The notes under the pieces are model-generated. The model saw only the letters and a program-made list of their open reading frames with translations, was not told where the DNA came from and did not search any database. A stretch of 64,000 bases of DNA from Mizuhopecten yessoensis (lineage: Eukaryota). How positions within the stretch are numbered: position 1 is the stretch's first letter; every line of letters starts with the position of its first letter. Where the stretch lies: positions 124,001 to 188,000 of the forward strand of contig NW_018408896.1 of NCBI RefSeq assembly GCF_002113885.1. Direction: 5' to 3'. Below are positions 24,623-64,000 of this stretch, one piece after another. A program made the position numbers and the translations under genes.

Positions 24623-24787
24623 TACGAGGCATTGAACTGCTTTCAGATAGCTTTCATAGGCAATATGAACTCCAACCAGACCAAGGCAAATATAACATGA
24701 AGCGCTCGCGCTCCATTCAATTTGTCATTGTCCAGTTGGCATTTATATTGCCTACGAATGTCATCTGATAGCAGTTCAATACTCGTA
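24623..24787. repeat. 165-bp imperfect palindrome (hairpin/MITE-like)
   Basis: TACGAG.CATTGAACTGCT...TAGGCAATAT...GCGC-TC-GCGC...ATATTGCCTA...AGCAGTTCAAT.CTCGTA. Confidence 0.75.
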
Positions 24788-35263: not shown

Positions 35264-38200
35264 ATGGCAGCTATACCGGAACAGACGTTACTCAGTGGGT
35301 ATAGGGTACCATGTGTTGGTCTGGGCACTTGGAAGGTAAGTTGTCAAAGAAAGCTTAAATTGTTTAAGTAATTAATTATGGTATGATGCATATAGAAATA
35401 GAAAGTCAAGATATACGCCAGATACTACGTTTGTGTAACCACCAGATACCCAACAACACTGATACACGTGTGTAATATATATATATAAGTACGTGCGCCA
35501 GATGTGTACATATTCAATACCAACGTATTTATCTGGTTGAGATTTTTGATTCAGCTTTTACTCAGACACTTTATCATTATTATTACTATTATTAGCTCAG
35601 ATGTAATTTTAGAAGGAATAACCAATTTCCTCCACGAACAAAATTATTTGCGAATTTCGACCCCGTACACTTACGTTATACAGTACCGTCCTTAACTTTC
35701 TTTGTCTAAAAATCCTTCACAATCAAATCATCTTTGTACTATAAAAGGACAAAGATAGGCAAATTAACTGAATTGATTGTTTGATATATTGGCTAACTGT
35801 CCCTTAAATATTATAATACATGTATGTCAATATACATTAAACAATATAATATCGAACATTTATGTATATTAATTAACCTTCCCAACTTTCAGTCAAAGCC
35901 TGGAGAAGCAGGGGCAGCTGTGAAGACCGCGATAGGACTTGGATACCGGCATTTTGATTGTGCGCTCATCTATAGAAATGAAAAGGACATCGGACAGGCA
36001 ATTACAGAAATAATTGATGAAGGAATTGTCAAACGTGAGGACTTGTTCATCACAACAAAGGTATTATAAGAAACCTTATATCGGTCAATTAGGATGCCGA
36101 CAGTTAATCTCGTTTACATCTCAAATAACAGAAACAATGCCTAAAGTTACATTTGGCCATAACCTTCCATTTATTTTGTGTAGTTGTGTATCAAAATAAT
36201 ATTAATTACAAATAAAATAATTATATCCTATTTACATCTAAAGTCATTGTAGGACGTGCCTCCGTTTGTGCAATGCATGTGTCCATGTGTGTATGTATGC
36301 TGGATGCGTTATTTTGTGTATTTACCTCCTTACTTAAGCGCGGATCCGATGCCGACTTCATAGTGTTAACTCCCTGAAATATAGAAGGTATCCAAAACAG
36401 GATTCTAACCAGTCCCTTAAATAAATCTGTAAACAACAATATAAATCGGAACAGACCTCTCTTATTTTCCGAATTCTAAAGCAATATCGTGGTGAGTTTT
36501 TGCATTCTAGCCTCCCCAATACCATGCAGTTATTGGTTTATATGTAATATTTGAACAGAACATGAACACAAGTTCAATTAAAAACAAGCAGTTCTCTCCA
36601 GACTGTTGTATCCATCCAGAACCTTTAACTATTTTTGTTTTTGTTTTAAATTAAGTGTTAAATCACCTAGTTGTTGTTTTAAATGGGATCTGGTGAATGC
36701 TAAAGAAGACAATATCACTACGTCTTCATTCATGTTTCAGTGGGTTGTAAATATAAGTCGTACCAGGACCTTGCAGCTGCTTTGCATAGATACAGGATGC
36801 TTGCTTTCTACCTACAGTAGAATAGCATTCACCAGTATGCTGCAAACATAATGCTACGGACGATACTCGTTCGACTTCAGTGCTAGCTTAAGACGACTAC
36901 GAATTCGCTGAACACATTTTAAATCATCCTGATCATTTTTCATTGTAGGCATTCATGGAAAAATCATAACGTTTTTAAACTGGAAAAGTAATGACAACGC
37001 TTAACAGTTTGTAAAATCATTAAATATTGTAAAATTTACGTACATATCAGTTTGATTATTTTGTTAAATAGAGGATTTTCAAGGATTCTTGACAAATGCA
37101 TAGTTAGAATTCAGGAGCGGGATGGATATTTTCATATTTTTCAAAAGTGAAAAACGTGAAAATAATCAACCCATGATTTTTGTTTGTTTGATTGGTCGGT
37201 TGAGAAAAATTAAGAAGAGTCATTTATTTCACTGTAGAAATGTACCAAGAAATGCACCTAAAAATTACGAAATTGTTTAAGAAAAACATTGTTTTTTACA
37301 AACATAATTTTCAGCTGTGGAACACCCACCACAGCAAGGCCCGAGTGCTGGAGGGGTGTAAGGAGTCCCTGGCAAACCTCGGCCTTGACTACATTGATCT
37401 GTACCTCATGCACTGGCCAATTGCTACGAGGGTAAGACTTACGAAGTAATATATTGGTTCCACAAAAAGGTGCATGCATTACGTAATCAATGTACATCAA
37501 TATACGCTGAATTTTATTCAGGTCCATTAAAGCCATTCATGCATGTCTAATATAGCTAACCATTCATGCATGTCTAATATAGCTAACCATTCATGCATGT
37601 CTAATATAACTAATTTGTTTAGAATTATTTGATTTCTGGTAAACTAAGAATAGGTAAGATTTCTTGACCGGTGCGTAAAAGTAAAATGCTGTTATGCGAT
37701 TTTGTAATAGAAAAATATTTCGTTAATGCAATAAATACACTAACGTCAAACGAAAGTGTTTCTCTCAAGGCAAATACAAAACATCGTTAACATTTATTTT
37801 TTCTTCATCGTTACGTTTGATAAACTCATTCACTATCGCCCCGTACTTGCAGTGGTCTAACTTTACATGTTGATATTATTTCTGTGTCATCTTAAATCAA
37901 TGCTGGCGATTACTTGATACTTTTGACTTTCTACTGAATATATCATTCGATATAATGATCAATTGCATTGCACCCTTTTGCAATAGTGTACGCTTATCAC
38001 TGTCCATGCTGTTTGTTTCATTCACATAAGAATGATATACAAAGCTTTTATACAGTTGTGCCATATTGTTTGAACTATTCCTAGAATTATTATTAACACT
38101 ATTAAAAGTCGTTTAGCAATTGTTCAGTTCTAAAATGTTGGTAGTAAAGCATTTTCAAACCTAACATGTTGTCTGCTCGCTAGTTACAATTCGGAAAAAC

Positions 38201-41200
38201 AACCTTGCATCGCTCTCAGTCCAACAGAAGCTCATTTTAGAATTTCACTATATTATTCAATTATTTTCAGGATATTGATGGATTATACCCAAAAACACCT
38301 GATGGCAAGATTGATGTTGTCGATATAGACTTCATAGAAACGTGGACAGTAAGAACATCTAAATGTTATATGTCATATATACAAACTTACACGATACGAC
38401 AAGTTCGTGCCATTTGCATTGACATTACTTGGCAGCTTTTATGATTTAATTTTAATTGATCAAAATCCTTACTTAATGCTGAGATTTAATATTATTTTCA
38501 ATAAGCAAACTAAAAATTTGAAAAACTTTTAAATGTGAATCTGACATCATTTGGAAGAAATATGTAGCCTAAATCAAAATAGTGTTTGCTCTATATTGTC
38601 AATGCTCTCCTTTCGTAACAGGCCATGCAGACTTTGGTTGACCAGGGTATGTGTAGATCTATAGGTGTATCCAATTTCAATTCTAAGCAAATCCAGAGGA
38701 TTATAGATATTGGTTTTAAACATCCACTGACTTGTAACCAGGTATGTATGAAAACATGTTTATTGAAATAATAAATTTAAATAAGTTTTCTCCGGCTTTA
38801 TAAACAGTGGTTATAAATACGACAAATATACAATTGTATTAGCCTGCATGACTAATATTTCTATATAATGATTCAGCGACTATTACGACTTCAATTTCAG
38901 ATCGAAATATCTCCATATTATTCCAACGAAAGGTTGATACAGTTCTGTCAATCCAAAGGAATTGTCGTAGTGGCGTATTCTCCTTTGGGGTCTCCTCAGC
39001 GGCCATGGTAAGTTTCAAGGTTGGCAATTTATTTTTAAGCAATACGTAATTGATGTGTATATAACGTGTACAATATGCTTTTATAAAATCAGTAATAGCT
39101 CATAATTATTATATATGAAATACTTCTTGTCATAATCCTGGTATTGATATATAAATGATAAATTTATATTTCATTCGTACTTTCAGAATAAAGTTCACGA
39201 AACGTTATTTGTTTAAATATATGTATATCCGAGACATTGTTGTACTGTTCCTCTTAGACAATGATAAACATAGTTTCTTGTTTAACGATTAGGGCGAAAC
39301 CCGACGATCCTAAGTTACTAGAAGAACCAGAGATAGTAAAGACAGCAGCTCAATACAACAAGTCACCTGCTCAGGTATGTATAAGATGATGGCTTTACAT
39401 GTATTTAGACAGTAACGAATTTCCTCATACGGACTAAAATATGTACACTTTTTTTATATATATATATACATTTAATAACCCAGGCATGCATACATCATTC
39501 GTGGGTTGTCTGGGGATGGGCTGCCCCAGCTACAACCCACAATACATGAAACACTCTCTTTTTTCTTTCTTCACAAAACAACACTTGTTCATTTCTTTCG
39601 CTTTCACTTTTTCACACTCTCATACTGTAATTTCTTCTTTTTTATCTCACCTTGTTACACTCTCGTACAAACCGTCCTCACACGGAGGTAACAAAAAACA
39701 ATTAACACGGAAAAATATGTACACTTAACATTAAGCTGTTTTTAAGAAGAGACATAAACGGGTAGAAAATTGTTTTGGTATTGACTCTTTATTGTTGTGC
39801 TGTATATCGCTGTTATAGGTCAATGGTTGAAGTTTCAAACAGTGGCAAATGTTCAGTACTCTCAAATGAAGTTTTATGCGACATTGACCGCCACTGTTAT
39901 CTCTTTTGAACAGTGGCATGGTTCATAATATAGACTTTACAGATAATTTCATTTGAAAATACCAGTCCTTCTCTAAACATGTTAATTGATAATTAAAGGG
40001 TTTCACGCACCTGCCCCTCTACTTCTCCAACCTTTTGGCCCCTACATATACCATACGAAACAGCTGTATGATGCAGTAGCATTTTATTTATTTTTTGCAT
40101 ACTGTATCTTGTACAAAAAATGTAAGGTGCAATCACTTAAAATAATGTATAAAGGAGGTAAAATTAACTGTGAAACATAACATTTCGACATAGTTTTTCA
40201 TTTCATGTCGACTTCCTTTTGAATCTTTATTTTAAAGTTAACAAGTTTTTCTGATGTTAAGGTTGTACTTCGATGGGGTGTTCAAAGAGGATATATGGTC
40301 ATACCGAAGAGCGTGTCTGCAGCAAGAATGACACAAAACATTGAAGTAGGTATACATGTATTTCAATATCGGGTATAATGTAAATTTTACATTAATCGAC
40401 AAAATATAAGCTTCGTATATAAACAATATCTTCATAAACATTGATCATACATCTTACTTATAAATGTTTTCAGTAGCATTATCTTATTAACTTTTAGTAT
40501 TATCGAAAGTACTATATATTACGTACATGTTATACATGTAGGTTCAATATTTCGTTATTTATTCAGACACGAATCTAGAGGCAATAGTATATTTAATATT
40601 TCATTAACTCATTCATTTAATCGAATTTTAGCACAAAACTCAGACCGAAAATGTAAATAACAAGAATTGATTAAGATCAAAACACGGGATTTCCAACAGG
40701 AAAATGATCAAAGATATGTTCTCGGACTGACGATCGCTTCCCTTCGCTTCCCTTCTTTGACAAAACTTACCATAGGGTCAAGTTATTTCTGAACAGTCAG
40801 CATTGATAGAAAGCTGTTTAGTGTTTCTTTCGTCCGTCCCCCTTACCTTTGTGGGAACCTTATTACCTTTGTGGGGAAGTTATTTACTTGAGGTAGCTGT
40901 GAATGACAGCTCTGTTATTTGGACCCAGCGACACCAAATCCCAGTACACACAGTGATAGTCCTGGGGCAATGGTGAATGACAGCTCTGTTATTTGGACAC
41001 CAAACAACAGTAGGTATGATGATAGGTACACAGACAATGGTGATTGACAGCTCTGTTAATTGGACCGAGCAACACCTAAGTCCAGGACGGACAATGTCTC
41101 ATAATATTGTAGACAATTTGGTAAAAGAGGTTGAGTTATTTCCCTTTGTACAGTTTGACGAAAGTATTTCGACCATTCTTTAAGAAATAATCTGTCCTTT

Positions 41201-43797
41201 TATCTATTTATGTGCACTATGATGCTTTGACATTGAAACTTTAAAAATATCCTCATAAGAATGCACTCTTAAAAATATGGTGTAAAAAAAAAATGAAAAA
41301 ATTTGAAAATTTAAGTTTTTGATAATTTGACCCCTGTGACCTTGAATGATGGTCAAGGTCAACGATATCCGAAAAATATTGTAGTCAATGATACATGCTA
41401 TGTATGTGCCAAATATCAACTCTCTAGGCCTTAAGAATACGGAGAAGAGATTTAAGTGGGGTTTTTTTTAATATGAATTTTGGCGGGAAAATGAACATTT
41501 TTCAAAGTCGCATATCTTCGTTATTTTTTATGCTATGACTTTGAAACGTTCAACATACCATCCTTAGATCGTACTCTTTTAGTTATGAAAAAAAATACTA
41601 TTTTTGAGATTTTCATTTTTGACCTATATATGACCCCATATCGAGGCCTTGAACTTGACATATTCTCTGATAACATGTCACGGTAAAAAGTTAGCCCCGA
41701 CCAAGCATAATTTAATAGATTTTTTTCTAACTAAAAGGTGCGCGAAAAAAAGATACCTGTAACTGAGCAAGATAGGGTTATCGCAGTCCCAGGCTAAGAA
41801 TATGTAACATTCCAACCTCGGCTTGCGTCTCGGTTGGGATTATGTTACAGAGTCTTAGCCCTCGACTGCGACAACCCGATTTCGCTCAGTTACAAGTAAA
41901 ATATTTTATTAATCTCTTTTCAGATATAATTGTAACAAGAGAGGGCTAAGGTGTAAGAGGTAGCCGCGCTTCTTAGTTTGATAGGATGTCAGGGGTTATA
42001 GCGACTGATGATAGGAAGTAGTTCAGGGGTCATAGTGACTGGTGCTTAGAGGCCAGCGGTTATAGCGACTGAAGATAGGGAGTAGTTCAGGGGACATAGT
42101 GACTGGTGCTTGGAGGTCAGCGGGATTTGAATTTGACATATTCTCGGATAACATGTCATGGAAAAAAGTAAGCCCCGACCAAGATCTACCAGAAGTATGA
42201 AGCGGTCAAGCAGTACACCGAAAGCTTTCGAAGTTATGGTCGTTCAAAAAACGTTTTAAAAAACTCTATTTATAGACCTGTGACCTTGACCTTTGACATT
42301 ATGATCATGAATTTGTTCGCATATCATGTGTTCGTTGTTCTCTAATACATACTGCAATATGAACCTTATATCTTTATTCGTTCATGAGATAGAGTGTCCA
42401 CAAGATATCTGGAAATAAGAATAAGAAACTTAAAGAAACAGAACAATATCAAAAGGTTTTTCCATCCGAAATGGAAATCCCTAATTATGTGTTTACTATT
42501 TTGTTTTTGCGGATGAGTTAATAATAATTCACCATTTCATGAGGTTGCTACACACACAGAAACAGCATTATCAAACTCTGAACCAATACACGTCTAATCT
42601 TACTCTTAACCAGTGCTGCTATCAAAGTTAATTATGACTGCCTTGCAAAGGGTAGTAACTCTAGAACGAAACATTTCTTTAATGGCTTTATCTTCTGTAC
42701 ATAAGTGATTATACTCCCAGCTGTGAAGTGGTAATATTATATGCGGAAACATCTGCATTGTTACCCGAGCCCTAACGCCAATTAGAAGAAATTATACATG
42801 AAAATAACCAAACAATATCCAAGAGATCCAATCTTCAATAGCAATGCCAGTTAGGCTGCATATTTCAGGTAAATGTAAAAGGTACATATTGAGGCTGTCG
42901 AATTTGCTCCAAATCACGGACTTACAAATTCGCGCTATAATGATCCTTGAGTTTAAAGTGTGTAGTTAAGTCACATAATGTTTTACGGTAAGACCTGATA
43001 TTTTAAAAGACTTTAAAGCTTGTAAAATTAAACTAAACTGTCGCACCTGTATCGTCATACTGACAACAACGACAATATCTATAATACTGAAACCAATTTA
43101 GTCTTCTCAACGAAGGAGAGTACGCTTTACTTATTGACATTATGCCAATTTTTAATTACAGCTTTTTGACTTTGAACTGACGGATGATGAAATGAAAGCC
43201 ATACACGGGATGAATCGGGATGTCCGATGTTGTACGAACTCTGAGTATGACCCTTTTTTTAAACTTAAATCATTTGGTAACAGTTAATATTCACATCCTA
43301 GTATAGCATAGAATTATTCACTGATAATACTGTCTTTATGTATAAATCAGTTCTTTTCGATTAATGTCCTATTCTATTTCTGGAGGTTGGTGACTCGCAT
43401 TTCTTTACCGTGATATTTGCAATATGTCACGGTTTTAGTACTGGATAGCACTTTCACGTTCTTACCGATTGCTTTAATTTTCACGTTAGACTTCATCTGA
43501 CCATTATCTCATGTTGTCCATGTCTTGTTGATTTCTGTTTCAAGCCTTGATTTAACAAACTATCCATTTGTATTGTTAAGTAATACAAAGTTGGTGTGTT
43601 GTCGGAATGTTAATATTAGTCAGGTTTCTGATTTTTCAAATATAAATATAATTTTATTTACAACAATGGTGAATTCCAAAGGGTAGTTCTGCTACTATGT
43701 TTTATATATTTTATACTTTTCACGAACTGTACTTTACTTTTGGTTTATTTTCAGTGCCACACATAGTCCTTACTATCCTTTCCATGAGGAGTTTTAA
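35264..43797 (+). CDS. AKR1B1-like: Aldo-keto reductase family 1 (aldose reductase-like), gene 4, 10 exons, 317 aa
   Basis: Exons 35264-35335, 35893-36060, 37315-37431, 38271-38348, 38622-38741, 38901-39007, 39293-39374, 40262-40345, 43162-43244, 43755-43797. All GT-AG, 954 nt in frame. Tetrad intact. Confidence 0.93.
37533..37613. repeat. 27-bp tandem repeat x3
   Basis: CCATTCATGCATGTCTAATATAGCTAA at 37533, 37560 and 37587. Confidence 0.9.
39451..39711 (-). mobile_element. 261-bp retroposed insertion with a 15-bp TSD in gene 4 intron 7
   Basis: AAAATATGTACACTT at 39436-39450 and 39712-39726. Minus-strand ATTAAA, (TA)n and oligo-A tail. Empty site in gene 3 intron 7 (~29116). Confidence 0.8.
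40659..42485 (+). mobile_element. Non-autonomous Helentron-like (HINE/DINE-type) composite insertion in gene 4 intron 8
   Basis: Starts AACAAGA; contains TGACCTTGACCTTTGAC motifs and internal tandem repeats; AAGAAT-rich tract, then a 3' hairpin GGTTTTTCCAT-CCGAA-ATGGAAATCC (42455-42480). Absent from the paralogous intron of gene 3. Confidence 0.6.
41754..41898. repeat. 145-bp imperfect palindrome inside the Helentron-like insertion
   Basis: TACCTGTAACTGAGC..TCGCAGTC..GGCTAAGA..TGTAACA..CCAACC pairs with GGTTGG..TGTTACA..TCTTAGCC..GACTGCGA..GCTCAGTTACAAGTA. Confidence 0.85.
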
Positions 43798-45314: not shown

Positions 45315-48077
45315 ATGGCTGCTATACCGGAACAGACGTTACTCAGTGGGTATAAGGTACATGTACCATGCGTTGGTCTGGGCACTTGGAATGTAGGTTG
45401 TCTACGGAAGGAATTTAAATGCACTTTCTTTGGATTGACAGTGTATCTTATAGAGTTAGATTTATCTATTATGTCTGTTTACATCTGATCGAATGGACTA
45501 TGCACTGGCTTGACTTCGGGTCTGAACAGGGTTAGTTCATGGAAATAATCAGCCAAAAGTTGTTATTACATCAGGTTAATCTAAGCCCTCTGATTTAAAC
45601 TTTATATATATTCATTATATGTCCACACATGTTTCTGTCTAAATTGTTTAAGTAATTGGTATGGGGTTTTTTTTCGCTGATATGATGCATATAGGAACAA
45701 AATTATATAAAGATATCCGCTAGATATTACGTGAAAATACTACATACCCGACAACACTGATACAAGTGTGTAATATGAAGGCTAGGAGCGTAAGATTTGC
45801 ACTGTCATTATTATTCAATTCCAACGTCGTAATCTGGTTGTGTTGTATGATTCAGCTTAAATAATATCGACTTTCCTCTATGGTTTTTTTTTAATACATA
45901 TGTAATTCTATATATATATGATCGTAAGGAAAGGTACATGTAGATAAAAGCGGTTTTGCTTGAATAATAAATCATCCAAAATTTAAATCACACAAATTTC
46001 TTCCTGGAACAAATCTTGTGAAATGACCCCGATCAACTTCAGGCGATATCCAATATCATACTTGACTTTCCTCTTCTTTATTATCCTTCATGATTAAACA
46101 TTTTTTTTACTGAGAAAGAATAGACATTCTATAGGCAAAGAATAGGCAATTTAAGGTAATAGGATGGTGTCAGCATTTCTCAGTAGAATTTCTTTAAATT
46201 TTGTAGTTATATTGCTTTGAAGCAAAGACAATTTTCTGCCACAAAAACATATAGGTTGTCAGAATTTTAAGAATTTTAAATAGAAATTTATGTAAAAAGG
46301 AGTGAATTTTGAAGAAAAAAATGAAAGACACAATTTTTTGCAAAATAATGTCAATAAAAATGATACTGACATAGATTAGTATTGCATTAATGTATATCAA
46401 TTTAATAAATGATGAAAATGTGTAAAATTAATTATCCAAACGATTAAAAATTGACATTTTTTGATAAAACCATATACATATAGTAACTGCATGTAAGAGT
46501 TATCTTTCTTGAAAAAACTTCACAGTAGTGAAATAGGTAGCCGGTTTCCTGAAGTATAGAAAAATGGACACATGTGACTCAATGATAAAAACAACTGAAT
46601 TAATACCTGGATTGCTTTGAAATACTTTAATATTAAACATTAGAATATGCGTAAATTGTGATACTGTCTCCCTACATTGGATTTTCAACTAGGGATGTAC
46701 TTCCTATATCCGTTTATCAATACATTCCTATGACCTTAACTAAAACGATTGTTTAATATATATGCTAACTGTAACTTTCAGATTATGTTTTATATTTCAA
46801 TAGACATTGTGCTACATAATCTTGATCATTTTATGTATACTTATTATGCTCTCCAACTTTAAGTCAAAGCCTGGAGAAGTAGGGGCAGCTGTGAGGACCG
46901 CGATAGGTCTGGGATACCGGCATTTTGATTGTGCGCTAGCATATGAAAATGAAAAGGAGATAGGGCAGGCAATTAAAGAAGTTATTGGTAACGAAACAGT
47001 CAAACGTAAGGATTTGTTTATCACTACAAAGGTATGTTTATCCTCTCTAGAACCGCTCGGTAATCTTTTGTTGATGATATAATTTATCAATATCATAATA
47101 TGTCAACTTCACTACAATTCCATGTTACAAAAACCTAGCCTTAAGTCAGATTGCATCACTTTCGTTATAATTTTTTCGAGGTTATGTAAATATATAATTT
47201 CTGACTTGTATTTCGGGAAATATTTATTTTGTTTTTGTACTTATTTCATTTCAATCATTATATTTGATCAACCCATCACAATCGCCTCTGACTTCGGGGA
47301 TCTGGATAAAATGTTGACATTACTTCTCTATTAACTTTCAAACAGCGATTACTTAATGCATTTGGGTTTCCTAAATCGTTTAATCACTTGAAATATTGAG
47401 TTATCACCTTATATTAAGACGGTCATTTTCATTCACATTAAAATTCAAACTATATGAAATGCTGATCAAGATAATGAAGAATTTTCTCTTTCTTTATTTC
47501 AAGTAAAATATGTTAACAATGATAATAGTATGTTAAATAAAGGGTGTCCCTCCCCCACATGTTCCAACATAATTCACATTAAAAAATGGCCCGAGTACTG
47601 GAGGGGTGTAAGGAGTCCCTGACTACGTAGACCTTAACCTAATACACTGGCCTATTGCTTTGAAGTTAAGATTTCATGGAACGATACATTGGTTGTAGGA
47701 TATTCTATCTTTGTATAGGACTATGCGTATGTTCATCGATTTAGTCATTAAAGTTGCATGTAAAATACAGCTATGTGTAACATTTGATATACTATTTCGA
47801 TTGAACACATAGTTAAACATAAGCTCATGGAACGTTTGTGTAGTATAAAACTGCACAATAAATAAACAAGCAGAAAACTCATTGTCAAAAATTGAAATGT
47901 CGGTTCACTGGTTAAAAGTCGAAAGAACAGAAGTGCATCTCATCTCAGTCCAAAAGAGGTACATTCCATAATTTCACCATAATATTCAATAACTTTCAGG
48001 GAAATGTTGCATTGTTTCCTACACATCGTGATGGCAAGGCTAATGTTGTCGATATAGACTTCATTGAAACATGGACA
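45315..48077 (+). pseudogene. Truncated AKR1 paralogue (gene 5): exons 1, 2 and 4 open, exon 3 destroyed, exons 5-10 absent
   Basis: Exon 1 45315-45392 (+6 nt) and exon 2 46864-47031. Exon 3 remnant ~47588-47665 lacks its acceptor and 5' end, has a 16-bp deletion, and its donor is GT->TT. Exon 4 48000-48077. The upstream block of gene 6 begins at ~49544. Confidence 0.88.
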
Positions 48078-50337: not shown

Positions 50338-53300
50338 ATGGCTGCTATACCGGAACAGACGTTACTCAGTGGGTATAAGGTACCATGCGTTGGTCTGGGC
50401 ACTTGGAAGGTAGGTTGTCAACGGAAGGATTTTTAATGTACGTTTTTTTTTATTGACATGTATTTAAGAGAGTGAGATTTATCTATTATTTCTGCTTACA
50501 TCTGATCGAATGGACTATGTACCGGCTCGACATCGGGTCTTAACAGGGGTAGTTCATGGAAATAATCAATTTTACAAGTTGCTATTACATCAATTAAATC
50601 TCAGCCATCTCACTTAAACTTTATATCTGTCTAAATTGTTTAAGTATTTGGTATGTTTTTTGTTTTCGCTGATATGATGTATATAGGAACAATATTATGT
50701 CAATATGCACACTAGATATTACGTGTAACCACTAGATACCAGTGTGCAATGTGTAAGTAAGGCGCGCAAGCTTTGCAATATCATTATTATTCAATACCAA
50801 CCTCTTGCTCTGGTTGTGTTGTATGATTCAGCTTAACTTATAGCCACTTTACTCTATTATTTTTTTAATACAGATGTAATACTATAGAGATTCGCATATG
50901 ATATACAATAACAGTTGTGTGTTAGGCTTGGTAGATAATAACGCTGTTGCTTGAATATTAAATCATCCGAAATTAAAATCAAACAAATTCCTACCAGGAA
51001 CAAAACTTTTTAGGCCTTGTACTTAATACTTTATGGGCGGGTTGGTCGAGTGATGAACACTCCGGCCTTCTACGCAGGCGGCCGGATTTCGATCCCCGAA
51101 GTCGTCGTGCGCATGTATATTCGGAGAAAGTGTTTTTCTCCTGTCCACATAACTTAAACAATTGCGGTATCTCTGCTGTAGCATTCAAGTGAGGTGGAAC
51201 TATAAATAATGACGTTGATAGCACGGCCCCCTACAAACAGAACACATTACTCTAGCACACACGCAGGCATACACACAAAGGGATATATTAGCCAGGTGGC
51301 ATAGGACTAGGCAACTCCTGCGGATTTCTCAACATTTTATAGATTAATGTATTTGCTAATTGTATAAATTGTATATCTATGTACTGTAAAGCGCTTTAGA
51401 GTGGCTTATGTTAGCTAGATAGGGCGCTTTATCGAATGTTTTATATTATTATTATTATACAATACCGTACTTGAGTTTCTTCTTCTAAATAATCCTTCAA
51501 GATAAAATCATCTTTTTTTCTGTGTATATAGAATATCATAATACATGTTTGTCAATAATCATTGTACCATATAATCTCGAACATCCTAACTAACATCCCA
51601 ACTTTCAGTCAAAGCCTGGAGAAGTAGGGGCAGCTGTGACGACCGCGATAGGTCTGGGATACCGCCATTTTGATTGTGCGCTTATCTATGGAAATGAAAA
51701 GGAGATCGGAGAGGCAATTAAAGAAGCTATTGGTAACGGAACAGTCAAACGTGAGGATTTGTTCATCACTACGAAGGTATGTTAATCCTCTCTAAAACCG
51801 CCCGGTTAACCTCTATTGATAATAGGATCAATATCACAGGATGTCGACTTTAAACTCTACTACATTTTCAGATTTCATCACCATTTTCGTTTTAATCATT
51901 TCAAAGTTATGTCAAGAAATCTTTTCTGTATTGTACTTCGTGTAACATTTTTCTGCTGGTTTCGTATGAATTTAATTTCAAACATTATATTTGATCAACA
52001 CTCCACAAAATAGGATGGTGTCCAAGCTCTATAAGTATATTCTGTTTTTCTTTCTTTGTTTTTATAAAATCTGTTAACGGTGATAATGACATTTCCAATA
52101 AGGGGTTCCCCTTTCCCCCACAATAAAAAATAAAACACGATTTTCAGCTTTGGAACACCTACCACAGCAAGGCCCGAGTACTGGAGGGGTGTAAGGAGTC
52201 CCTGACAAACCTCGGTCTGGATTACATTGATATGTACCTCATACACTGGCCAGTTGCTACGAGGGTAAGACTTAACGAGTTACCCAAATGAAGCGGTACA
52301 TTTGTTGCACACTGTTCTTTATCTTGGTAATTATCGATTTAAAAGGGCATCATCTTTTAATACAGTTATGTGTAACAGCTGATATACTGTATTGATTAAA
52401 CCCGTAGTTAAATATAAGCACAGTGTACGTTTCTTGTAGTATTTATTTATCCATAAATTCTTAAATAAACAAGCAGAACGCACATTTTCAAAACTGAACA
52501 GTCGAAAACGCGAGCTTACGTCTTATTTCAGCCACAAATAAACCAATTTCATCATAACATTTAAAATCTTTCAGGAAAATGTTGCATTGTTTCCTAAAAG
52601 TCCTGATGGCAAGGCTGATGTTGTCGACATAGACTTCATTGAAACATGGACGGTAAGTATATATCCTTGTTTTATTATGCATTTCTACAAACAAACTCGC
52701 ATGTAAATACCGAATTAGGAATGGTAGTAGATATATTTTGGAAATCTATTTTCACGTTAATTTAAGACAACATGTATACACATGTTACCTAGGCAATTTT
52801 TCTTAGGGTTTTTAATTACGTTGATTCCGTGGGTCATTTTCTTTTACGAATCCTTAGGTTCACAGTGGAATAACAAGTCTGATATAAAGCAGCTAACTGT
52901 TTGAGTGGGTGCTCGTAATCCACGAATTCATGCACCCACAAAAGTGTGTTTTGTCGGGAAACCACCAAAGTTTGGTCACACGTAAATATCTAATATCATA
53001 GTATTTTACTGTCAAGTTATTGAATGTGAGTTTACAACATCTGTGAAAATTGATAATACAACCTCGTAACACAGACTGTTTGCATAGTAGTAACGTTATC
53101 AAATAATTGGAAAACGTAGATAAAGAAGATAATATTACGAAAGGGGAACAACGGGGAACAAAGTTGTTAGACAAGTTGGCATAGCAAATAAACGGGGTGG
53201 CAAATGTACACATTTCAGTAATTACCTTTCTTTTGCTGGGAAATAAATACAGTTAATAACGAAAAACCTTTGCGTTTGGAAGAACTCTGCATAATCATGG

Positions 53301-56273
53301 TTATTTCCTTTTGACTTGCTGAAAAGGTAAACACTTTTTAAATGCATAGTTATGCTTATTTTTTCAAACAAACACGAAAAGAATTTTTTTTTAGAATAAA
53401 ATATAACCTGCAAAGACTATCAAGAGAAAATAACCATTAAACTAAGTTTTCTGCTTTATGTCATAACTCCCTTTCAAACAGGCCATGCAGGATTTGGTAG
53501 ACGAGGGTATGTGTAGATCCATAGGTGTGTCTAACTTCAATTCTAAACAGATCCAGAGGATTTTAGATCTTGGTTTGAAACATCCACTGTCATGTAACCA
53601 GGTACGTATAATAAACTGTGTTAAGGTAAGATATTGAAATGTTCTTTGCAAAACAGTGAATTAAAAATAATGATACAAACACCGTATATAACAACAACCT
53701 TCTTTACGAATGAAAGTAAACCAATAATGCATAAGTTTGAATTTACTGTTTACGTTATGACATTTTTTTGATATTAACATTTCCTGAATTTCAGATTGAA
53801 ATATCTCCCTATAATTCCAACGAAAGGTTGCTACAGTTCTGTAAATCCAAAGGAATTGTCGTAGTGGCTTATTCTCCCCTTGGATCTGCTGATCGACCTT
53901 GGTAAGTTGAAGAATTGGCAATTTCATCCTTAGCAGTATTTATTTTGAGGTTCAATACGTAATGAATACAATATGATTTTATTTCAGTTGAAAATTGTTG
54001 CTAAAAATTAGTTGCTTAATGCAAAATTGGATTGATGAAACAATGGCAAATTCATAATCATCCATTCGTTCTTTCAAAATGAAGTTTTCGAAATGTTCTT
54101 TGTCAAATTATTTTTCAACTGTGACATTGGTTCATTCCTTTTTCTTTGACACTTTTATATATGTTCTTTCGACGATAAGGGCCAAACCCGACGATCCAAA
54201 GTTGCTAGAAGAGCCGAAAATAGTAAAGATAGCTGCTCAATACAACAAGTCACCTGGTCAAGTAAGTATGATTTTAAAAATTCCCCTTCTCAAGTTATGA
54301 CTTTTGTCTTACTAAACTATTTACTGTTCAGTTAGGGTAACGGGTACAAACAATTTAAATCATAATATTACCACTGTCCAATAAGAATGTGTTTAAGTCC
54401 TTTTCAAAAGAAGTATTTCATAAAGAGCACAATCCTCGATGCATTTGACAGAATTATTGTTGCTGGACTTTGAATGTTTGAAAATAGACATTTTAATTAC
54501 CCATAGCCAGAAAAAAAATCGGTAATGTCATTTTCTATAGATAACTAAAAAAGAAGGAAAACGGAATACAACTTTTCTTTGCAATATAAGTGATGCAGTG
54601 GTACATTTGCAATTAACAGATCAACAAAGCGTCATGTTACTTTATTACTTTTAGTTAAACACTTTTTTGCTTTAAACTAAGGTTCTACTTCGATGGGGTA
54701 TACAAAGAGGATACATCATCATACCGAAGAGTGTGTCTGCAACCAGACAGAAACAAAACTTTGAAGTAGGTGTACATTGTATAGCATTGCTAATAGTTTG
54801 TTTAATTTACCTGTAACTTTATACATATAAGGGATAATACTAGATATGGTAGAAAAACAGCTCTGAAGTAGGAATTTTCTAGACGATCATAACTGCTTCA
54901 GTGGTATCCTGTAACTAAACGCGAATAAAAAAAGGAATGGATTTCAAAAAAATACATATGATCAAACAGACAGAATCACATAAAACATATGAGATCAACA
55001 ATAATACTGTTAATTAAGTTGTTTTATATTCCATTGATGTCTGTAGCTAAACAAAATATCAGGAGTAGAAGGCACTTTTTCAAATTGTCACCAAACAAGC
55101 TATTTACAATTTCATTCTAAGTTTATTGAATGTGAAGAGTAGAATCAAGTCAAGTCACGAGTAGCATCATACTGACGATATGAAAAACACATACAATAAT
55201 GTGTCGGTTCATCTTATAAATGCCTTTTACAGGCGTTTGATCTTGAATGATAATGAGAAATAAGAAATCTTCGAGCACGATAGAAATTACCGATCAGTCA
55301 AAACGAAACAGATTAAGCTATACTTGTCGACATACTTTTGATTTTTAATTACAGGTTTTTGACTTCACCCTGAATGATGACGACATGAAAGTCATACACG
55401 AGACCAACCGGAACTTTCGTGTTTGCACCTTCAATAATACTGAGTACGATTCATTTATTAAAAGCTTCATCCCGGGATAACACTCCCTTACGTAGCACAG
55501 GCATGTGGCGCCTAACAATGTCTTCTTACATTGTTTATGGTGTCAGTATATGCATTAACTTTCATTTCTCTTGTATATTTACTAACATTTCCTCTTATAG
55601 TTGTAATACATTATATGCTAAGGTTTTAATTCTGGACAGCACTATTGCATTTTGAGAAGAACATATATATAGAATATTTAAACCTTATTTTTTATTGAAC
55701 CATCATCTCATTTTGTCCAGTCACCGTTAACCTTACTACCATTCCGCATGTATTTTTCAGGTAATAGACAGTTCAAGACGTTCTTGAAACGAAAAAAAAA
55801 ATGCTTTGTTTTCTGATTCATTTATTTATTTATGTTTAGAATAAAATAAATTTACAACAATAATGGATTCCTAAAATTAGCTCTGCTATTATATTTTTAT
55901 TGTTTTACATATACATATACATTGTATAATAAGATGCCGGGACAAGAAACCATTTTAAAGAACACATAAGATATTCAATATATTTAAATGGTAGATATTA
56001 ACTCTGAGACAGGGGATAGTAATGTTTCTCTGTACTTGCAATAAAATATTTCAGTTTATCTAAATTGTCAAAATATTGAGAAATAGTGTTCTCCCAAAGT
56101 GTGACATACCTAAAATCATACCGTTCGTGAACCACTAAGAGATTTTGTAAACTTTTATATAACAAAGTGTCCGATCTATCGTCAGGCTATACATAAATTT
56201 TACTTCAAGATTTTGTTTCATTATTTTCAGAGCCACTCACAGCCCCTACTATCCTTTCCACGAAGAATTTTAG
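50338..56273 (+). CDS. AKR1B1-like: Aldo-keto reductase family 1 (aldose reductase-like), gene 6, 10 exons, 319 aa
   Basis: Exons 50338-50409, 51609-51776, 52148-52264, 52575-52652, 53482-53601, 53795-53901, 54180-54261, 54682-54765, 55355-55443, 56231-56273. All GT-AG, 960 nt in frame. Tetrad intact. Confidence 0.93.
51035..51458 (+). mobile_element. tRNA-derived SINE in gene 6 intron 1
   Basis: A-box-like TGGTCGAGTGA, B-box-like GATTTCGATCCC, L2-type 3' end TGTAAAGCGCTTTAGAG...GCGCTTTAT and (TTA)n tail. Absent from paralogous introns. Confidence 0.8.
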
Positions 56274-57301: not shown

Positions 57302-59546
57302 ATAAAGTCATAATCCACTATGAGACATTACTGTTAGGAAGCACAATAAGTCTGTTTGGTCAGATCACTTGAAACTTAGGATGTCGTTTTAGCTGGCAAT
57401 GGCAATGCTAAAGTTCACCTAGCTTAGAGAAGGTCTGTGAACATACGATATTTTAACCACAGATAGATTATACCAGGCCATATCACTTATCGATATTTGA
57501 ATTGTTGTCACGAAGCAGAATTTTATCATTTATTTGTTTAACTGAAGATAATATTTGAAACATCCGATTTCACTATTCGATATCTCAAAGTTTGTGTTAT
57601 CTCAAAAATGTGTATCGTATATGACTAACAGTCGATTCGGTTCTGTATTTCTCACTACTAAATTGGCTGACAATAGTTGTTATTGTAATCCCAGTTAATT
57701 AAAGTGAATATGGATTTTGTTTTCGGAACATATCAGTGTTATTCAAAGATTGTCAACAAAAAACTGGCTAATAATACTTTTTTGTACAATTAAAAACCAT
57801 TGATGTTTTTTTCATTATTTCGTTGATAGTCAGATCATCATGTTTTTGGAGACGTCACTAAAACAGCAATTAGATTAGGATATCGGCATTTCGACTGTGC
57901 CCTCGTTTCACCAAGACGGCCGGGGCTCGATTCACCGATCGTTCCCGAAATGAATCAATAAACGACAGAATACATTTGATAATATTGTTTTTTCAATGTG
58001 ATATCGAATTTTAGGGTAGTGATTAATTTTGTGGAAGATAACGTATGTTTCGCACCAAAGCGTATTATACTATCTTGCACAGTATACATGTGTACACAGT
58101 ACATAATGTGATTTATGTTTAAATTACCTCCCTTGTACCTTGTAAATAGTACCTATGTGATGCGTGCAATACCTGAGTGATACCAGTGAAGCATTTACCG
58201 TTTACCTTTTAAGTGTGTCCTCAATGGATACAATAAGTCAAAATTACTATTAGAATAAACAACCTTATATAGATATATCGGTTGTGTTCTTTGAAGATGT
58301 TGCAGATGTTGTTTTAAAATTTATAAAATATTACTTTATTTATGGAAATATTGCAACAACACTAAAATGATTAAGGAAGGTGTACGTTCATTTGATTCTT
58401 TCAGCATTTAATAACAACATAACTGTATTGACAAGCCATGCAGGATTTGATTGACCAGGGGCAGGGTATGTGTAGATCCAAAAATGTATCCAACTTCAAC
58501 TTAAAACAGACCCAGAAGATTTCAGATCTTGGTTTGAAACATCCTCTGTCATGTAACCAGGTAATTATATAAAAAAAAAATGTCATTTATGAAATATTGC
58601 AAACAAAAGGACCATTCTTGTTGTGATTACCGAACCGGAAACCATAAACGTAAGTTCGCCATTTGATAGCGGAAACAATTACCCTATCAGAACAACATTT
58701 AAAACTGTGATTAGCACCTCGTGCTCGTTTCTGTTTCCAAATTGAAATCTCTCCTAACAGTTCCCGTGAAAAGTTGTACCATTTCTGTAAATCCAATAGA
58801 ATTGTCTTAGCGGCTTTATTTCCCTCTGGAGTCTGGTGACAGACCACGGAGAGTAAATTACACGCATAATGTTACATCTGTTTCTGCTTTGACATATGTA
58901 ATTGATTGAACTATAGGTGTGATAAATTCCAATAAGCCACAGTCCCTTTTCAGCAAATCGATTATATATATAAACTTTCAAATTTTGATAAATGTGGATG
59001 ACTTTTTTTTTAATTAAACATAATTTGTCTTTGTTTGTTAATAGGAGGCACGGTAGCCTAGTGTTAGGACGCCGGGCTCGTGACCGAAGGGTTGCGGGTT
59101 CGAGTCACGGCACGGCACTGTGTTATATCTTTGAGCAAGATACTTTACTCCGCTTGTTTCAGTCTACCTAGCTGTAAATGAGTACGCGGTTGGCAGTTCC
59201 GGCTGTGTGCTCCCCAGTAAGTTGAGAAAGATATTGGCTGGTTGCTAAGGCCCTTTAACCACGGATAATAATCTGTGAACCGCTTTGAGACGACCCACGA
59301 ACTAGGTTGTGATAAAGCGGTATATAAGAAGAACCTCGAATTATTATTATAATTATTATTGATGTTGATTTAAACGTTGACGCTACATCTTAATGCTTAT
59401 ACATGTCAAGATGTTAACCTGTGTGTGGTGATAATAGGATGTGGTAAGTTTACTTATTTAAGGTGATACTCCGCTGCCGTTTGCAACGAGGGTGTATCTA
59501 TATACTTAAGACTGTGTCTGAAGCAAGGCTGAAACACAACTTAGAG
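57302..59546 (+). pseudogene. Heavily decayed AKR1 paralogue (gene 7)
   Basis: Exon 1 remnant ~57302-57375 (ETLLLG...GQIT*, TGG->TGA). Exon 2 remnant from 57830 ([15 protein letters not shown]). Exon 5 58435-58560 and exon 6 58741-~58848 have AG->AA acceptors, and exon 6 is frameshifted. Exon 8 59463-59546 (VILRCRLQRG). Exons 3, 4 and 7 not found. Confidence 0.85.
59044..59360 (+). mobile_element. tRNA-derived SINE with a CORE-like central domain and L2-like tail
   Basis: A-box TAGCCTAGTG, B-box GGTTCGAGTC, TTTGAGCAAGATACTTTAC...CAGTC...CTGTAAATG core, TGTGAACCGCTTTGAG...AAAGCGGTATATAAG and (TTA)n tail. Confidence 0.85.
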
Positions 59547-60055: not shown

Positions 60056-60115
60056 ATTGGGAATAGGTAGCCAATAACTATTAGCTGTAATTCGTAGTCG
60101 GTCAACATGGCTGCC
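60056..60115 (+). promoter_or_regulatory. Putative proximal promoter of gene 8: two opposed CCAAT boxes and a YY1-like site over the start codon
   Basis: ATTGG 60056-60060, CCAAT 60071-60075, CAACATGGCTGCC 60103-60115. Confidence 0.4.
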
Positions 60116-63100
60116 ACCAAACATAAAGTTCCCAAAATGCGGTTTCTAAATGGTCAAGACTTCTGTCACTTTGTTGGACTTGGAACTGTTCAGGTTTGTA
60201 ATGCATTCATATTCGATAATCAATTAAGGTATATACGACATGTGTAAGTCAATGTTATTATGTACAAATTGATATATAACATGTATTGTAGCTACTTTAT
60301 TATACAGGTCTCGAACATTATAGGCTTGCAGTTAAAAATAAGGATTACAATATCCTTTTATTTAGTGTTTAAAGAAAAATATTTAGAGCTGAGTTTAAAT
60401 GTATAATGTTATTATTAAGTTTTAGTGTAACCATGTTGCATATATTGTAAATGTCTTCTTGTATTGTAGAATAACTTGATCATTTAAACATTGACATCTA
60501 TATGCGGTAAGGCCTGGTACTACGCCTCGTCTAATTAAGCATAACAAGTACTTAGAAGGCATAATACTGTAGTATCAAGGTTTTTAAATAATTGTTGGTT
60601 AACTCAAAACAACTCGTATAGAAACGTAACTTTAAGGGACAATCTCGAAGTTTTTAATCGATGCGATTATGTGAAATCAATATGTGTTTGTATTGTGAAT
60701 TTAATGTAGGCAAACTTATTATCTTTATTCAGTTTCGTCAAAATAACACTATAATGACATGAAAACATCAACTATATATACTAATATTGGAATGGTAGAA
60801 GTCGGAATACTACTAGAACTGCACGATTATATTCAACAGTCTGTGAACCCTAACAAGTATTCATAATACATATTTATTTTTGTATCTGATAAATCTTTAA
60901 AAAACAGATAATTATATCCGAATCGAACGTGATAATATTAAATTTAGTTTTCCTGTATTTTATTGGGATACGAGTGTCAGATGGCCGTAGACACTGTGGA
61001 GTCTGTGTGTTTGTCGGTGCTAACACGGGTAGCTATAACTATGCACTACCTCACTGGAACCTACTCACCCGCAAATAGCTATTTAAATACAAAAGGACGA
61101 TCGCGCCATTCTTAAAAGATTAGTCATCTTACTTCTACGAAGATTGCATCATGCCTGTTATGTTGTATAAAAATCCCACACACTGTATTTTTATATATTT
61201 CAGAACATTTTTGATTGTGAAACATCAATATAAGTGTGAAAGCATTATCATTTAAACACAAATCTTTAAAAGCAACATACGTCTTTACAAATGATGTACA
61301 ACGGGATTATAATAAGCCGGTATTATCTTTCCTTTATATATTCATTAAAAGGGTAGTTAGAACTTAACAACTTAAGCATTTATATGATATTACATTTTAT
61401 TGAAGACGAAAACATTTTTTATTTGAATGTACGAGTGTACATCTTATTCGCTACGTTTCGTAAATAATATTTAAGTTTGTAATTCAGTATACATGACGAG
61501 AAGTAAACCATGCTTTAACGTGTGTTTCTGTACAATTCGACTATACAGACAGAACTAAGTTATCATGCTTGCTATCAATACCCTTGAGTTGTATTATCCC
61601 ACCCGTCAAATCATAGATATATATAAACGATACGGAGCATTCTGGAGATTTTTCTCATCGTGATAAACGGTGTATCTTAAACACATGTTATGATCGTCTA
61701 TCGATACCACGTAATCTCAATATTTGTTACAACTCGAACAGCATACATCCATACACATAAAGCCTCTGATAGACACCGGAGTGTCTACTAAAACATTGGT
61801 TCTTTCTCAAATCTGACGACGACGTAGTGACTGCAAAATACAGCTATGTTTTATATACATGTTGTACAATTCCAGATATGCATAGGAATGTAACCAAATC
61901 ATAGTATCTTGTTATTGCGTTATTGCAGAGATGACCCTAACGCCGTACTAATGATTTGATAGAATAACGTTAGACAAACGTTTCTTGTCCATTCCCATTT
62001 ACAATGGTGTGATGTTACTCTCTAATAGCTCCGAGGAAATGCAGCTTCAGTCATAGTTTAGGCCATTCACAAAAATATAATAGCGTATTAGTGTTAACAA
62101 GATGGAAACAAAAAGATGGTCTAGGTCTGTAATACAATATAAACGACTATCTTGTCAGAGGCTACATTTACCAATAATAGCCAATGACGTTCATTCCATT
62201 ACGAAGTAAATACTTGTCCTTGTTTTCAAAGTAAATGCCACAATTTGATCAATCGATCTTTTTTTCAAATACTTGTAAGAAAAATGATCGTCACATTAAC
62301 CCCCTTATCACCCATACACCCACTTCTGTGAACCGTTTGTTCCACGTCGACATCACAGGAAAGGGGATGAAACATGATGGGTATATTTTGATCTTTGGGA
62401 TATTTCATTAGATCCCAATTTACCAAAGTGTAGGAACACAGTTCAAAGCATAGCTGTGGACGGGGAGAACGTGGTTGCCAGGTCACAGTTATTAATCAGA
62501 AGGATGTTAAGTCAGAAAAGGGCTCACATGTACACTGTATGGGTGAAACTCTCTCTTCCATGGGTCAGCTTATTACATGTCTCAGATGTTGTGTCATTTA
62601 TAAAAAAAAACATGCAATCTACACCGTTGCTTAACTTTTAAAACTAAAACACATCACTTGTATACCAATTTACTCATCATACACCACTCAGAACGACATT
62701 GTTCACATCAAATAACTTTCTATCTTGAGGACTTGTCTTCATCGCAATTTCCACACATATTATGCTAAAATATAGCCAGTTGTAAAATGTTGAACATTCA
62801 CCCTGAATGATCAGACCTGGAAGTTAAAATAGCCGATTATTTTTAAACTTAAAGCTGATGACGCACGCGCTGAAAAACGGGTCGTTAATTTTCCCTTAGA
62901 TTCGACGTTAATTGTCGATGAGATAAATGAGATATATCTATTCTTGAAACGTGTTTATATGAATCTGGCAGTAATGTACCAATCATCATCATATTTGATT
63001 GAAAGTTGGACCTTTGTTTCTTTCAGAACCCGGATGAAGTAGGACCTGCCTTAAGAGAAGCCATAGATCTGGGGTACCGTCACATTGACTGTGCAGCTCT

Positions 63101-64000
63101 GTTCAAAAATGAAAAAGAAATCGGGGAGATTCTTAAAGAGAAAACAACACTTGGAACAGGAACAATTGATCGAGATGACTTCTTTATTACATCCAAGGTA
63201 CATCTGTGTGTATCTACACTAAAATTCTAAAGCACTTATTTTGACACATTTGTATCACCAGTCGATGAAATATTTCCCTCTTTATGACAAGTTGCTTGTT
63301 TTGAAGAACGCACCTTAGTTTCCGAAACGTTATGGATGACCTCAATTGAGATAACAATATCCAAAAAAAAGTCATTGACATAGATCGACAATGAGATATG
63401 TCGTTAAACCAAGATCATCTTTACATATCAAGTAATAGACTGGTATTATACTATAAATACGCGATATGAAAAAGCTATAAAGTAAATAGTGTGACTAGGA
63501 TTACAGATATACCATTCTTTCTAACATTTTTCCGTAGATTTGGGGAACAGATCTTAGACCAGAGAAAAGTCTCGAATCCCTCAAGAAAACACTGGGAGAC
63601 CTGGGACTGGAATACTTAGATCTCCTGCTTATTCAGGTTCCTTTCGGGCTTAAGGTAAGTTGGTATTGGTCCTAACTCGTAGGAGCAGTTAGCTTTTTCG
63701 CATTCAGACACAAGACCAGTAAATAAGGCGTATTAAACAGTTATGCTTTTCCATTGTTTTTCATTCAATGATCTCGTTAATGGATGTGTGGCTTGTAAAG
63801 TGTCACAATGTTTCAACCGAATAATTGCAGGAAACTATGATTGCAATGTCAGGAGGAGAGATATGATTTTAATAAGAAACGACACCGATTGAATGATAGT
63901 GAAATCATTATACTGCCATATGCTTATTTTAGGAAGGAGACGAATGTTTTCCAAAAGAAGAGGATGGAACCTTTAGCTTAACGGATGTAGATTACGTAGA
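60107..64000 (+). CDS. Divergent aldo-keto reductase family 1 protein (gene 8), 5' part only; catalytic Tyr->Phe and His->Gln (candidate pseudoenzyme)
   Basis: Exons 60107-60193 (MAATKHKVPKMRFLNGQDFCHFVGLGTVQ), 63027-63197 (..GYRHIDCAALFKNEKEIG..FFITSK), 63538-63654 (IWGTDLRPE..LEYLDLLLIQVPFGLK) and 63933->64000 (EGDECFPKEEDG..). All GT-AG, phase 0, no stops. Confidence 0.88.

What the first reader, a model, noticed from the sequence alone, without database searches (positions are those of the whole stretch)
60107..64000. Intact but apparently catalytically dead AKR (pseudoenzyme) at the end of an active AKR array
Seen: gene 8 is far more divergent from genes 1-6 than they are from each other, yet its four visible exons are open and in phase with canonical splice sites. 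It reads DCAALF where the paralogues read DCAL(I/A)Y, LLIQVP for L(I/M)HWP or IIHWP, and GLGTV for GLGTW. Established: in AKR1B1 numbering these are Y48 (general acid), H110, W111 and W20 of the active-site pocket; D43 and K77 are kept. Inference: changes concentrated on catalytic and pocket residues, with a conserved barrel scaffold and no disabling mutation (unlike decayed gene 7 next door), point to a selected non-catalytic role. Possibilities are an NADP(H)/redox sensor, a ligand or toxin carrier, a regulator of its active neighbours, or a structural protein (AKRs were recruited as rho-crystallins in frog lens).
Basis: partly seen in the sequence, partly recalled or inferred. Interest (0 to 1): 0.75.

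Follow-up and report, generated by a model that had tools for sequence, protein, structure and literature searches.

The report
Scallop reductase shedding its catalytic tyrosine
A scallop gene for an aldo-keto reductase is intact, spliced and conserved in four scallop genera, but three of them have lost the catalytic tyrosine and histidine while one keeps both, so it likely works as an NADP(H)-binding protein that no longer needs normal reductase chemistry.

Summary
The residues are as described. The four exons are identical to the first 147 residues of Mizuhopecten yessoensis XP_021378509.1, an intact 334-residue aldo-keto reductase. All three introns are spliced in four runs, with no variant at the Phe or Gln codon.

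Orthologues in Ylistrum, Argopecten and Pecten are 77-87% identical, as conserved as the tetrad-intact neighbours. All four keep the core NADP(H) contacts and share a rebuilt pocket (W20V/I, W111V, C298Y, K21Q, D216A).

The pattern fits relaxed constraint on Tyr48/His110 in a selected protein, not selection for F/Q.

'Dead' is not shown, since Y55F mutants of a related enzyme still reduce quinones (PMC11202113). Tyrosine-less AKRs recur elsewhere (12 of 157 divergent domains).

Best reading: an NADP(H)-loaded binding protein without classical activity (0.5); main rival, a tetrad-independent reductase (0.25).

The parts
60074..60106 (+). 5' untranslated leader of gene 8 (at least this long)
   Evidence: spliced contigs begin at 60074 (X3) and 60087 (X2, X7)
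60107..60193 (+). gene 8 exon 1 (residues 1-29), with V28 at the Trp20 position and Q29 at the Lys21 position
   Evidence: joint to exon 2 in 4 of 4 runs
60194..63026 (+). intron 1, 2833 nt, GT..AG
63027..63197 (+). gene 8 exon 2 (residues 30-86): D50 = Asp43 kept, F55 = Tyr48 lost, K86 = Lys77 kept
63102..63104 (+). TTC (Phe) at the catalytic Tyr48 position; Tyr in Ylistrum, His in Argopecten and Pecten
   Evidence: no variant listed in 4 runs
63538..63654 (+). gene 8 exon 3 (residues 87-125): W88 = Trp79 kept, Q119 = His110 lost, V120 = Trp111 lost
63634..63636 (+). CAG (Gln) at the His110 position; His in Ylistrum, Gln in Argopecten and Pecten
   Evidence: no variant listed in 4 runs
63933..64000 (+). 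gene 8 exon 4, cut by the window end (residues 126-147); residues 148-334 lie outside the window
   Evidence: transcript contigs of 1712-1738 nt run about 1250 nt past the window end
57848..59546 (+). gene 7: decayed AKR remnants (parts of exons 2, 5, 6, 8)
   Evidence: exon-wise tblastn
50338..56270 (+). gene 6: ten-exon AKR with the full D-Y-K-H tetrad (= P0011); nearest complete neighbour
45315..48077 (+). gene 5: broken AKR (exon 3 truncated and frameshifted, exons 5-10 not found)
1642..43794 (+). genes 1-4: ten-exon AKRs with the full tetrad (1642-13333, 17035-23268, 25693-32261, 35264-43794)

Best explanation
Gene 8 is an intact, expressed scallop AKR1-type paralogue that keeps the barrel and the core NADP(H) contact residues, and it likely works as a cofactor-loaded binding protein (a pseudoenzyme) that no longer uses Tyr48/His110 chemistry. 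Shown: intact frame, splicing, conservation in four genera, cofactor residues kept, pocket rebuilt, Tyr48 and His110 variable. Inferred: after duplication the ancestor reshaped its pocket (W20V, W111V, T113F, C298Y, L300F), opened the cofactor lid (K21Q, D216A, S210A, S214A) and gained a 10-residue tail. Its selected job became holding NADP(H) together with a hydrophobic ligand or protein partner, with faster cofactor exchange. Tyr48 and His110 then became dispensable and drifted by single-base steps (Tyr to Phe in Mizuhopecten, to His in Argopecten plus Pecten); Ylistrum kept or regained the ancestral letters. The Mizuhopecten protein would have little or no ordinary aldehyde-reductase activity. 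Ligand, partner and tissue are unknown.
For: Identity to the full-length RefSeq protein over all 147 residues in the window. Spliced transcripts in 4 of 4 runs laid, from four studies. Orthologue identities of 77-87%, against 74-80% between Mizuhopecten, Ylistrum and Pecten tetrad-intact paralogues. A clade with support 100/100, a long stem (0.9) and short tips (0.04-0.14). D43, K77, S159, N160, Q183, Y209, K262, S263, R268 and N272 invariant in 4 of 4. Tyr48 is one of only 15 of 334 columns with three or more states. Y48 and H110 are 2 of the 4 varying columns among 49 highly conserved ones (chance 0.005, post hoc). Pocket: 9 of 14 positions differ from the AKR majority, against 4 of 14 in gene 6. 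AlphaFold model mean pLDDT 83.9, TM about 0.87 to aldose reductases. Tyr49/His111/Trp112 form the anion site and Lys21-Asp216 the safety belt (PMC8708191 passages). Enzyme-independent scaffold roles are reported for AKR1C3 (PMC13327032 passages).
Against: Ylistrum keeps the whole tetrad, which may mean the ancestor, and Ylistrum today, are real enzymes. Y55F and Y55S mutants keep quinone reductase activity (PMC11202113 passage). Six of 25 cofactor-site positions differ from the AKR majority, against 3 in gene 6, so NADP(H) binding may be weakened. Three of five exonic variants in the reads change a residue (T4I, D107N, V144L), which is not the pattern of tight constraint, though the sample is tiny. 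No binding, activity, tissue or dN/dS data. Only four orthologues are known.
Confidence: 0.5

Rival explanations
1. It is still an enzyme, for substrates that need no general acid (quinones, nitro compounds, activated double bonds). Bound NADPH and the rebuilt hydrophobic pocket do the work, so Tyr48 and His110 are free to drift.
For: Nicotinamide-positioning residues (D43, S159, N160, Q183, Y209) and the pocket are invariant in 4 of 4. Y55F/Y55S keep quinone reductase activity (PMC11202113 passage). An open lid would speed cofactor release (inference from PMC8708191).
Against: No natural tyrosine-less AKR with such a physiological activity turned up in my searches. The quinone activity is residual activity of engineered mutants.
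Confidence: 0.25
2. The clade is a specialised classical reductase that is still active in Ylistrum. It lost efficiency independently in the Mizuhopecten and Argopecten/Pecten lines, where a second, non-catalytic role keeps the gene.
For: Full D-Y-K-H tetrad in Ylistrum. Tyr48 was lost twice independently whether the root is taken from the gene tree or the mitochondrial tree (PMC11354973 passages).
Against: Ylistrum shares every other pocket change (W20V, W111V, C298Y, lid loss). Two retained codons can be chance on its short branch (0.041). On the mitochondrial tree His110 needs either a reversal or two parallel losses.
Confidence: 0.13
3. The catalytic tyrosine has migrated. Tyr307, at the Cys298 position beside the nicotinamide, serves as proton donor in place of Tyr48.
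For: Tyr at 298 in 4 of 4 orthologues against 1 of 119 other AKRs. Residue 298 lies in the active site and contacts Tyr209 in the C298S structure (PMC8708191 passage). Migrated residues are a known pseudoenzyme caveat (PMC10211241, start of abstract only).
Against: No lysine is known to lower its pKa there (inference). The tyrosine may simply fill the space left by W111V.
Confidence: 0.06
4. It is a decaying duplicate or an assembly artefact, like genes 5 and 7.
For: Two broken neighbours; 3 of 5 exonic variants are non-synonymous.
Against: 334 residues with no gap in four genera, 230 of 334 columns invariant. Reads confirm the F and Q codons and the splicing.
Confidence: 0.03
5. It is an abundant structural protein, like the AKR-derived lens crystallins of frogs.
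For: Precedent recalled; only reference titles on frog lens crystallins were seen.
Against: Low depth in the four raw-read runs: about 1-3 in X23 and X24 exon bins, near 0 in X19 and X22; tissues are not disclosed. A conserved cofactor site and pocket fit a ligand-binding role better.
Confidence: 0.03

Closest known systems
AKR1B aldose reductases (AKR1B1, AKR1B10, AKR1B7/B14)
   Same: PF00248 domain, 41-45% identity, same fold (TM about 0.87), Asp43, Lys77, Trp79, Trp219 and the 2'-phosphate residues kept.
   Different: Tyr48, His110, Trp20, Trp111, Cys298 and the Lys21-Asp216 belt are replaced; 10-residue C-terminal extension.
Engineered mutants Y48F, Y48H, H110Q (AKR1B1) and Y55F (AKR1C9)
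   Same: The scallop orthologues carry the same substitutions naturally. Title of Bohren 1994 seen in a reference list; Y55F quinone activity in PMC11202113.
   Different: Here they sit on a rebuilt pocket and are maintained in wild genomes.
Natural tetrad-variant AKRs (AKR1D1 His-to-Glu; Haemonchus AKR16/21/22; insect and tapeworm paralogues)
   Same: Paralogues with an altered tetrad: 17 of 157 domains in divergent representatives, including D-F-K-Q and D-H-K-Q. Named examples in Anabrus, Trichogramma and Taenia; 5 of 22 Haemonchus AKRs lack DYKH (PMC11296255 passages).
   Different: None of these representatives is over 46% identical to gene 8, so these look like separate origins. AKR1D1 keeps Tyr.
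Kv-beta subunits (AKR6) and frog rho-crystallin
   Same: AKR folds whose main role is not bulk metabolism; Kv-beta holds NADP+ tightly and regulates a partner (PMC9317154 passages).
   Different: Kv-beta keeps its catalytic tyrosine and slow activity. Gene 8 groups with mollusc AKR1-like proteins. Rho-crystallin properties are recalled only.

Membership tests
Aldo-keto reductase superfamily | PF00248 domain and (alpha/beta)8 barrel | tested here: met
   E 3e-52, 177.9 bits against a cut-off of 24; Foldseek to aldose reductases
Aldo-keto reductase superfamily | NADP(H)-contact residues (S159, N160, Q183, Y209, K262, S263, R268, N272) | tested here: met
   kept in 4 of 4 orthologues; S210A, S214A and the K21/D216 belt changed
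Classical catalytic AKR | Asp-Tyr-Lys-His tetrad | tested here: not met
   D-F-K-Q in this gene, D-H-K-Q in two orthologues; met only in Ylistrum
Classical catalytic AKR | NADPH-dependent carbonyl reduction | not testable with these tools
   needs an assay
AKR1B subfamily | over 60% identity to members (threshold recalled) | tested here: not met
   44.7% to rodent AKR1B1, 46-49% to scallop neighbours; the RefSeq names are automatic
Pseudoenzyme | lacks conserved catalytic residues | tested here: met
   for the Mizuhopecten, Argopecten and Pecten proteins
Pseudoenzyme | intact, expressed, conserved across species | tested here: met
   (protein-level conservation; dN/dS not computed)
Pseudoenzyme | loss shared across orthologues | tested here: inconclusive
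   3 of 4 lack Tyr and His; Ylistrum keeps both
Pseudoenzyme | no catalytic activity, with a demonstrated non-catalytic role | not testable with these tools
   no biochemical data
Enzyme-crystallin (rho type) | very high abundance in lens | not testable with these tools
   tissues of the runs are not disclosed

The most novel reading that the evidence does not exclude
A scallop-specific AKR subfamily caught in mid-transition from enzyme to NADP(H)-gated sensor or carrier. Ylistrum would hold the last catalytically competent form, two lineages independently reproduce the textbook inactivating changes, and the clade-specific Tyr at position 298 either plugs the pocket or replaces the lost proton donor.
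Probability: 0.15. Interest if true: 0.65.

Novelty: new member of a known kind. Interest (0 to 1): 0.38.

Why it matters
Catalytically altered paralogues are common in enzyme families, and tyrosine-less AKRs recur in other animals, so a specialist would find this notable rather than startling. Its value is as a natural experiment. Four orthologues 77-87% identical carry Y/H, F/Q and H/Q at the acid-base pair on the same rebuilt pocket. Comparing them would show directly whether catalysis was lost before or after the residues drifted, and what an AKR is kept for when its tetrad is dispensable. I found no paper on this gene (open-licence PubMed Central and bioRxiv only).

Tried and rejected
No whole genome is held, so the contig could not be extended; exons 5-10 come from the RefSeq protein model, not from DNA I read. 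dN/dS could not be computed for want of orthologue coding DNA.

Searches for more orthologues added none: near-length search, 7998 candidates scored; shorter proteins, 3 hits at 45-49%; profile search of 50% representatives, best 150 listed, none above 46% identity; exon-3 pattern in metagenomes, 0 matches. These blanks do not prove the clade is limited to scallops. The ESM Atlas gave only generic AKR clusters.

No listed holder run is on record as RNA; expression rests on the lays. The first lay was dominated by repeats. My first exon join was off by one base and was corrected. The contingency table had mistyped counts and was corrected (Gln110 in 4 of 12 Tyr-less domains against 1 of 145 Tyr-bearing ones; 4 of the 12 come from one protein).

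The structure model gave no coordinates, so pocket geometry is untested. No complex prediction was run, because no specific partner is claimed. Literature searches for Y48F/H110Q kinetics and rho-crystallin residues gave no readable primary data. Earlier scan notes: two unrelated bacterial hits and one blank. Rejected: assembly error, pseudogene, and selection for the exact F/Q pair.

Full report
Observation. Gene 8 has four exons in the window: 60107-60193, 63027-63197, 63538-63654, and 63933 to the end. All are phase 0 with GT..AG introns and read GLGTV, DCAALF and LLIQVP. Alignment to a rodent AKR1B1 and to solved AKR1B chains maps V28, F55, Q119 and V120 to Trp20, Tyr48, His110 and Trp111, with Asp43 and Lys77 kept. 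Among 119 other AKRs, all have Tyr48 and 118 have His110; the exception is an AKR1D1 with Glu. Genes 1-4 and 6 have all ten exons. Gene 5 has a truncated, frameshifted exon 3 and no exons 5-10. Gene 7 is remnants, and gene 3 reads GLGTA. What lies beyond gene 8 is unknown.

Identity and integrity. The 147 encoded residues match Mizuhopecten yessoensis XP_021378509.1 exactly. That model is 334 residues long and is named 'aldose reductase-related protein 2-like'; a second annotation gives a 286-residue form with a different end. The missing part keeps GVSNF, NQ, YAPLG and IPKSSNPKRLKEN. Reads confirm the gene. In one search, contigs of 1712-1738 nt from three runs of three studies (RNA by guess) join all three introns, and raw poly(A) reads of a fourth study show 8, 6 and 2 joining reads. 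No variant is listed at the Phe or Gln codon. Five exonic variants were seen, two silent and three changing a residue (T4I, D107N, V144L). In four raw-read runs gene 8 had depth in X23 and X24 and almost none in X19 and X22, whereas gene 6 bins were covered mainly in X19. Expression is therefore modest and differs by sample; tissues are not disclosed.

Orthologues. Three close relatives were found, in Ylistrum balloti (87%), Argopecten irradians (83%) and Pecten maximus (77%), all 334 residues with no gaps. The Ylistrum and Pecten copies lie on contigs of the same length as those of tetrad-intact paralogues, which suggests the same locus. The four form a clade with support 100/100, a stem of 0.9 and tips of 0.04-0.14, similar to the tips of the paralogue clade. 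Cross-genus identities of the tetrad-intact paralogues are 74-80%. The gene has thus been conserved at least as well as its ordinary neighbours. This is protein-level evidence; dN/dS was not computed. No closer relative outside scallops was found, but those searches are not exhaustive.

The key result. Position 48 reads F, Y, H, H and position 110 reads Q, H, Q, Q (Mizuhopecten, Ylistrum, Argopecten, Pecten). Tyr48 is one of 15 of 334 columns with three or more states. Of 49 columns at least 97% conserved in 114 non-scallop AKRs, four vary among the orthologues: Y48, H110 and two others (chance of both being among four is 0.005, post hoc). The gene tree places Ylistrum first, weakly (94/73). 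A mitochondrial tree places Mizuhopecten first and Ylistrum at the base of Pectininae (PMC11354973, passages). On either root Tyr48 was lost twice independently, each by a single-base step. His110 needs one change on the first root and two on the second. This looks like relaxed constraint at two sites, not selection for Phe/Gln.

What is fixed in all four. Pocket: W20V/I, W111V, T113F, C298Y, A299G, L300F, with W79, F122 and W219 kept. Cofactor site: D43, K77, S159, N160, Q183, Y209, K262, S263, R268 and N272 kept; K21Q, D216A, S210A and S214A changed. Lys21-Asp216 is the safety-belt salt bridge, and Tyr48, His110 and Trp111 form the anion site (PMC8708191, passages). Nine of 14 pocket positions and 6 of 25 cofactor positions differ from the AKR majority, against 4 and 3 for gene 6 (the site lists are my choice, partly recalled). 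A 10-residue tail absent from the neighbours has 7 invariant positions and is predicted disordered. The model is an ordinary AKR barrel (pLDDT 83.9; TM about 0.87 to aldose reductase).

Mechanism. I commit to an NADP(H)-loaded binding protein without classical carbonyl-reductase activity (0.5). The pocket and lid were rebuilt first, since Ylistrum shares those changes; the acid-base pair then drifted. Cofactor binding, ligand, partner and lack of activity are all inferred. The main rival is a tetrad-independent reductase (0.25), because Y55F and Y55S mutants keep quinone reductase activity (PMC11202113, passage). Others: a classical enzyme surviving in Ylistrum (0.13), a migrated catalytic Tyr at 298, seen in 1 of 119 other AKRs (0.06), decay (0.03) and crystallin (0.03). 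That Y48F abolishes and Y48H or H110Q cripple aldose reductase is recalled; I saw only the title of Bohren 1994 in a reference list.

Comparison with what is known. It is an AKR by domain and fold, not an AKR1B by identity, and in three of four species not a classical AKR by tetrad. Such variants are not rare. Among 157 domains from 149 divergent representatives, 17 lack DYKH and 12 lack the tyrosine, including unrelated D-F-K-Q and D-H-K-Q proteins. Gln110 goes with tyrosine loss in 4 of 12, against 1 of 145 with tyrosine. Named cases are in a cricket, a wasp and a tapeworm, and 5 of 22 Haemonchus AKRs lack the tetrad (PMC11296255, passages). Non-catalytic roles are reported for AKR1C3 (PMC13327032, passages) and cofactor-linked regulation for Kv-beta (PMC9317154, passages). 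PMC12562546 (passages) confirmed the tetrad definition; PMC2365353 and PMC2193354 gave reference titles only. No paper on this scallop gene appeared in the listings; subscription journals were not searched and no supplements were read.

Verdict. A real, conserved, expressed, previously unremarked tetrad-relaxed AKR clade of scallops. The pseudoenzyme reading is plausible but unproven and is weakened by the Ylistrum orthologue. It is a new member of a known kind, with a good built-in comparative test. Interest 0.38.

Noticed in passing
window 1-2321: Tandem duplication of about 1046 nt (1-1277 matches 1047-2321 at 99.5%) that repeats exon 1 of gene 1 at 596 and 1642; a recent duplication or an assembly artefact.
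   Followed up: no
window 25693-25764: Gene 3 has Ala at the Trp20 position (GLGTA) with an intact tetrad, so its pocket may also be altered.
   Followed up: partly
window 45315-48077: Gene 5 is a second broken copy: two extra residues in exon 1, damaged exon 3, no exons 5-10.
   Followed up: partly
window 59044-59330: High-copy transcribed repeat inside gene 7, by far the deepest bin in all four RNA runs, with partial copies near 51300-51450; it looks like a tRNA-derived SINE (resemblance recalled, not tested).
   Followed up: no
window 57864-57946: ARAGORN calls a tRNA-Ser that overlaps the decayed exon 2 of gene 7; probably spurious.
   Followed up: no
proteins P0126, P0127, P0179: Multi-domain AKR proteins: an 1833-aa protein with 8 matched stretches, a Caenorhabditis japonica protein with four AKR domains all lacking the tyrosine, and a D-H-K-Q AKR with a long charged tail.
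   Followed up: no
window genes 1-6 and their orthologues: All five tetrad-intact scallop paralogues aligned have Gln at the Glu271 cofactor position, while gene 8 keeps Glu or Asp.
   Followed up: no
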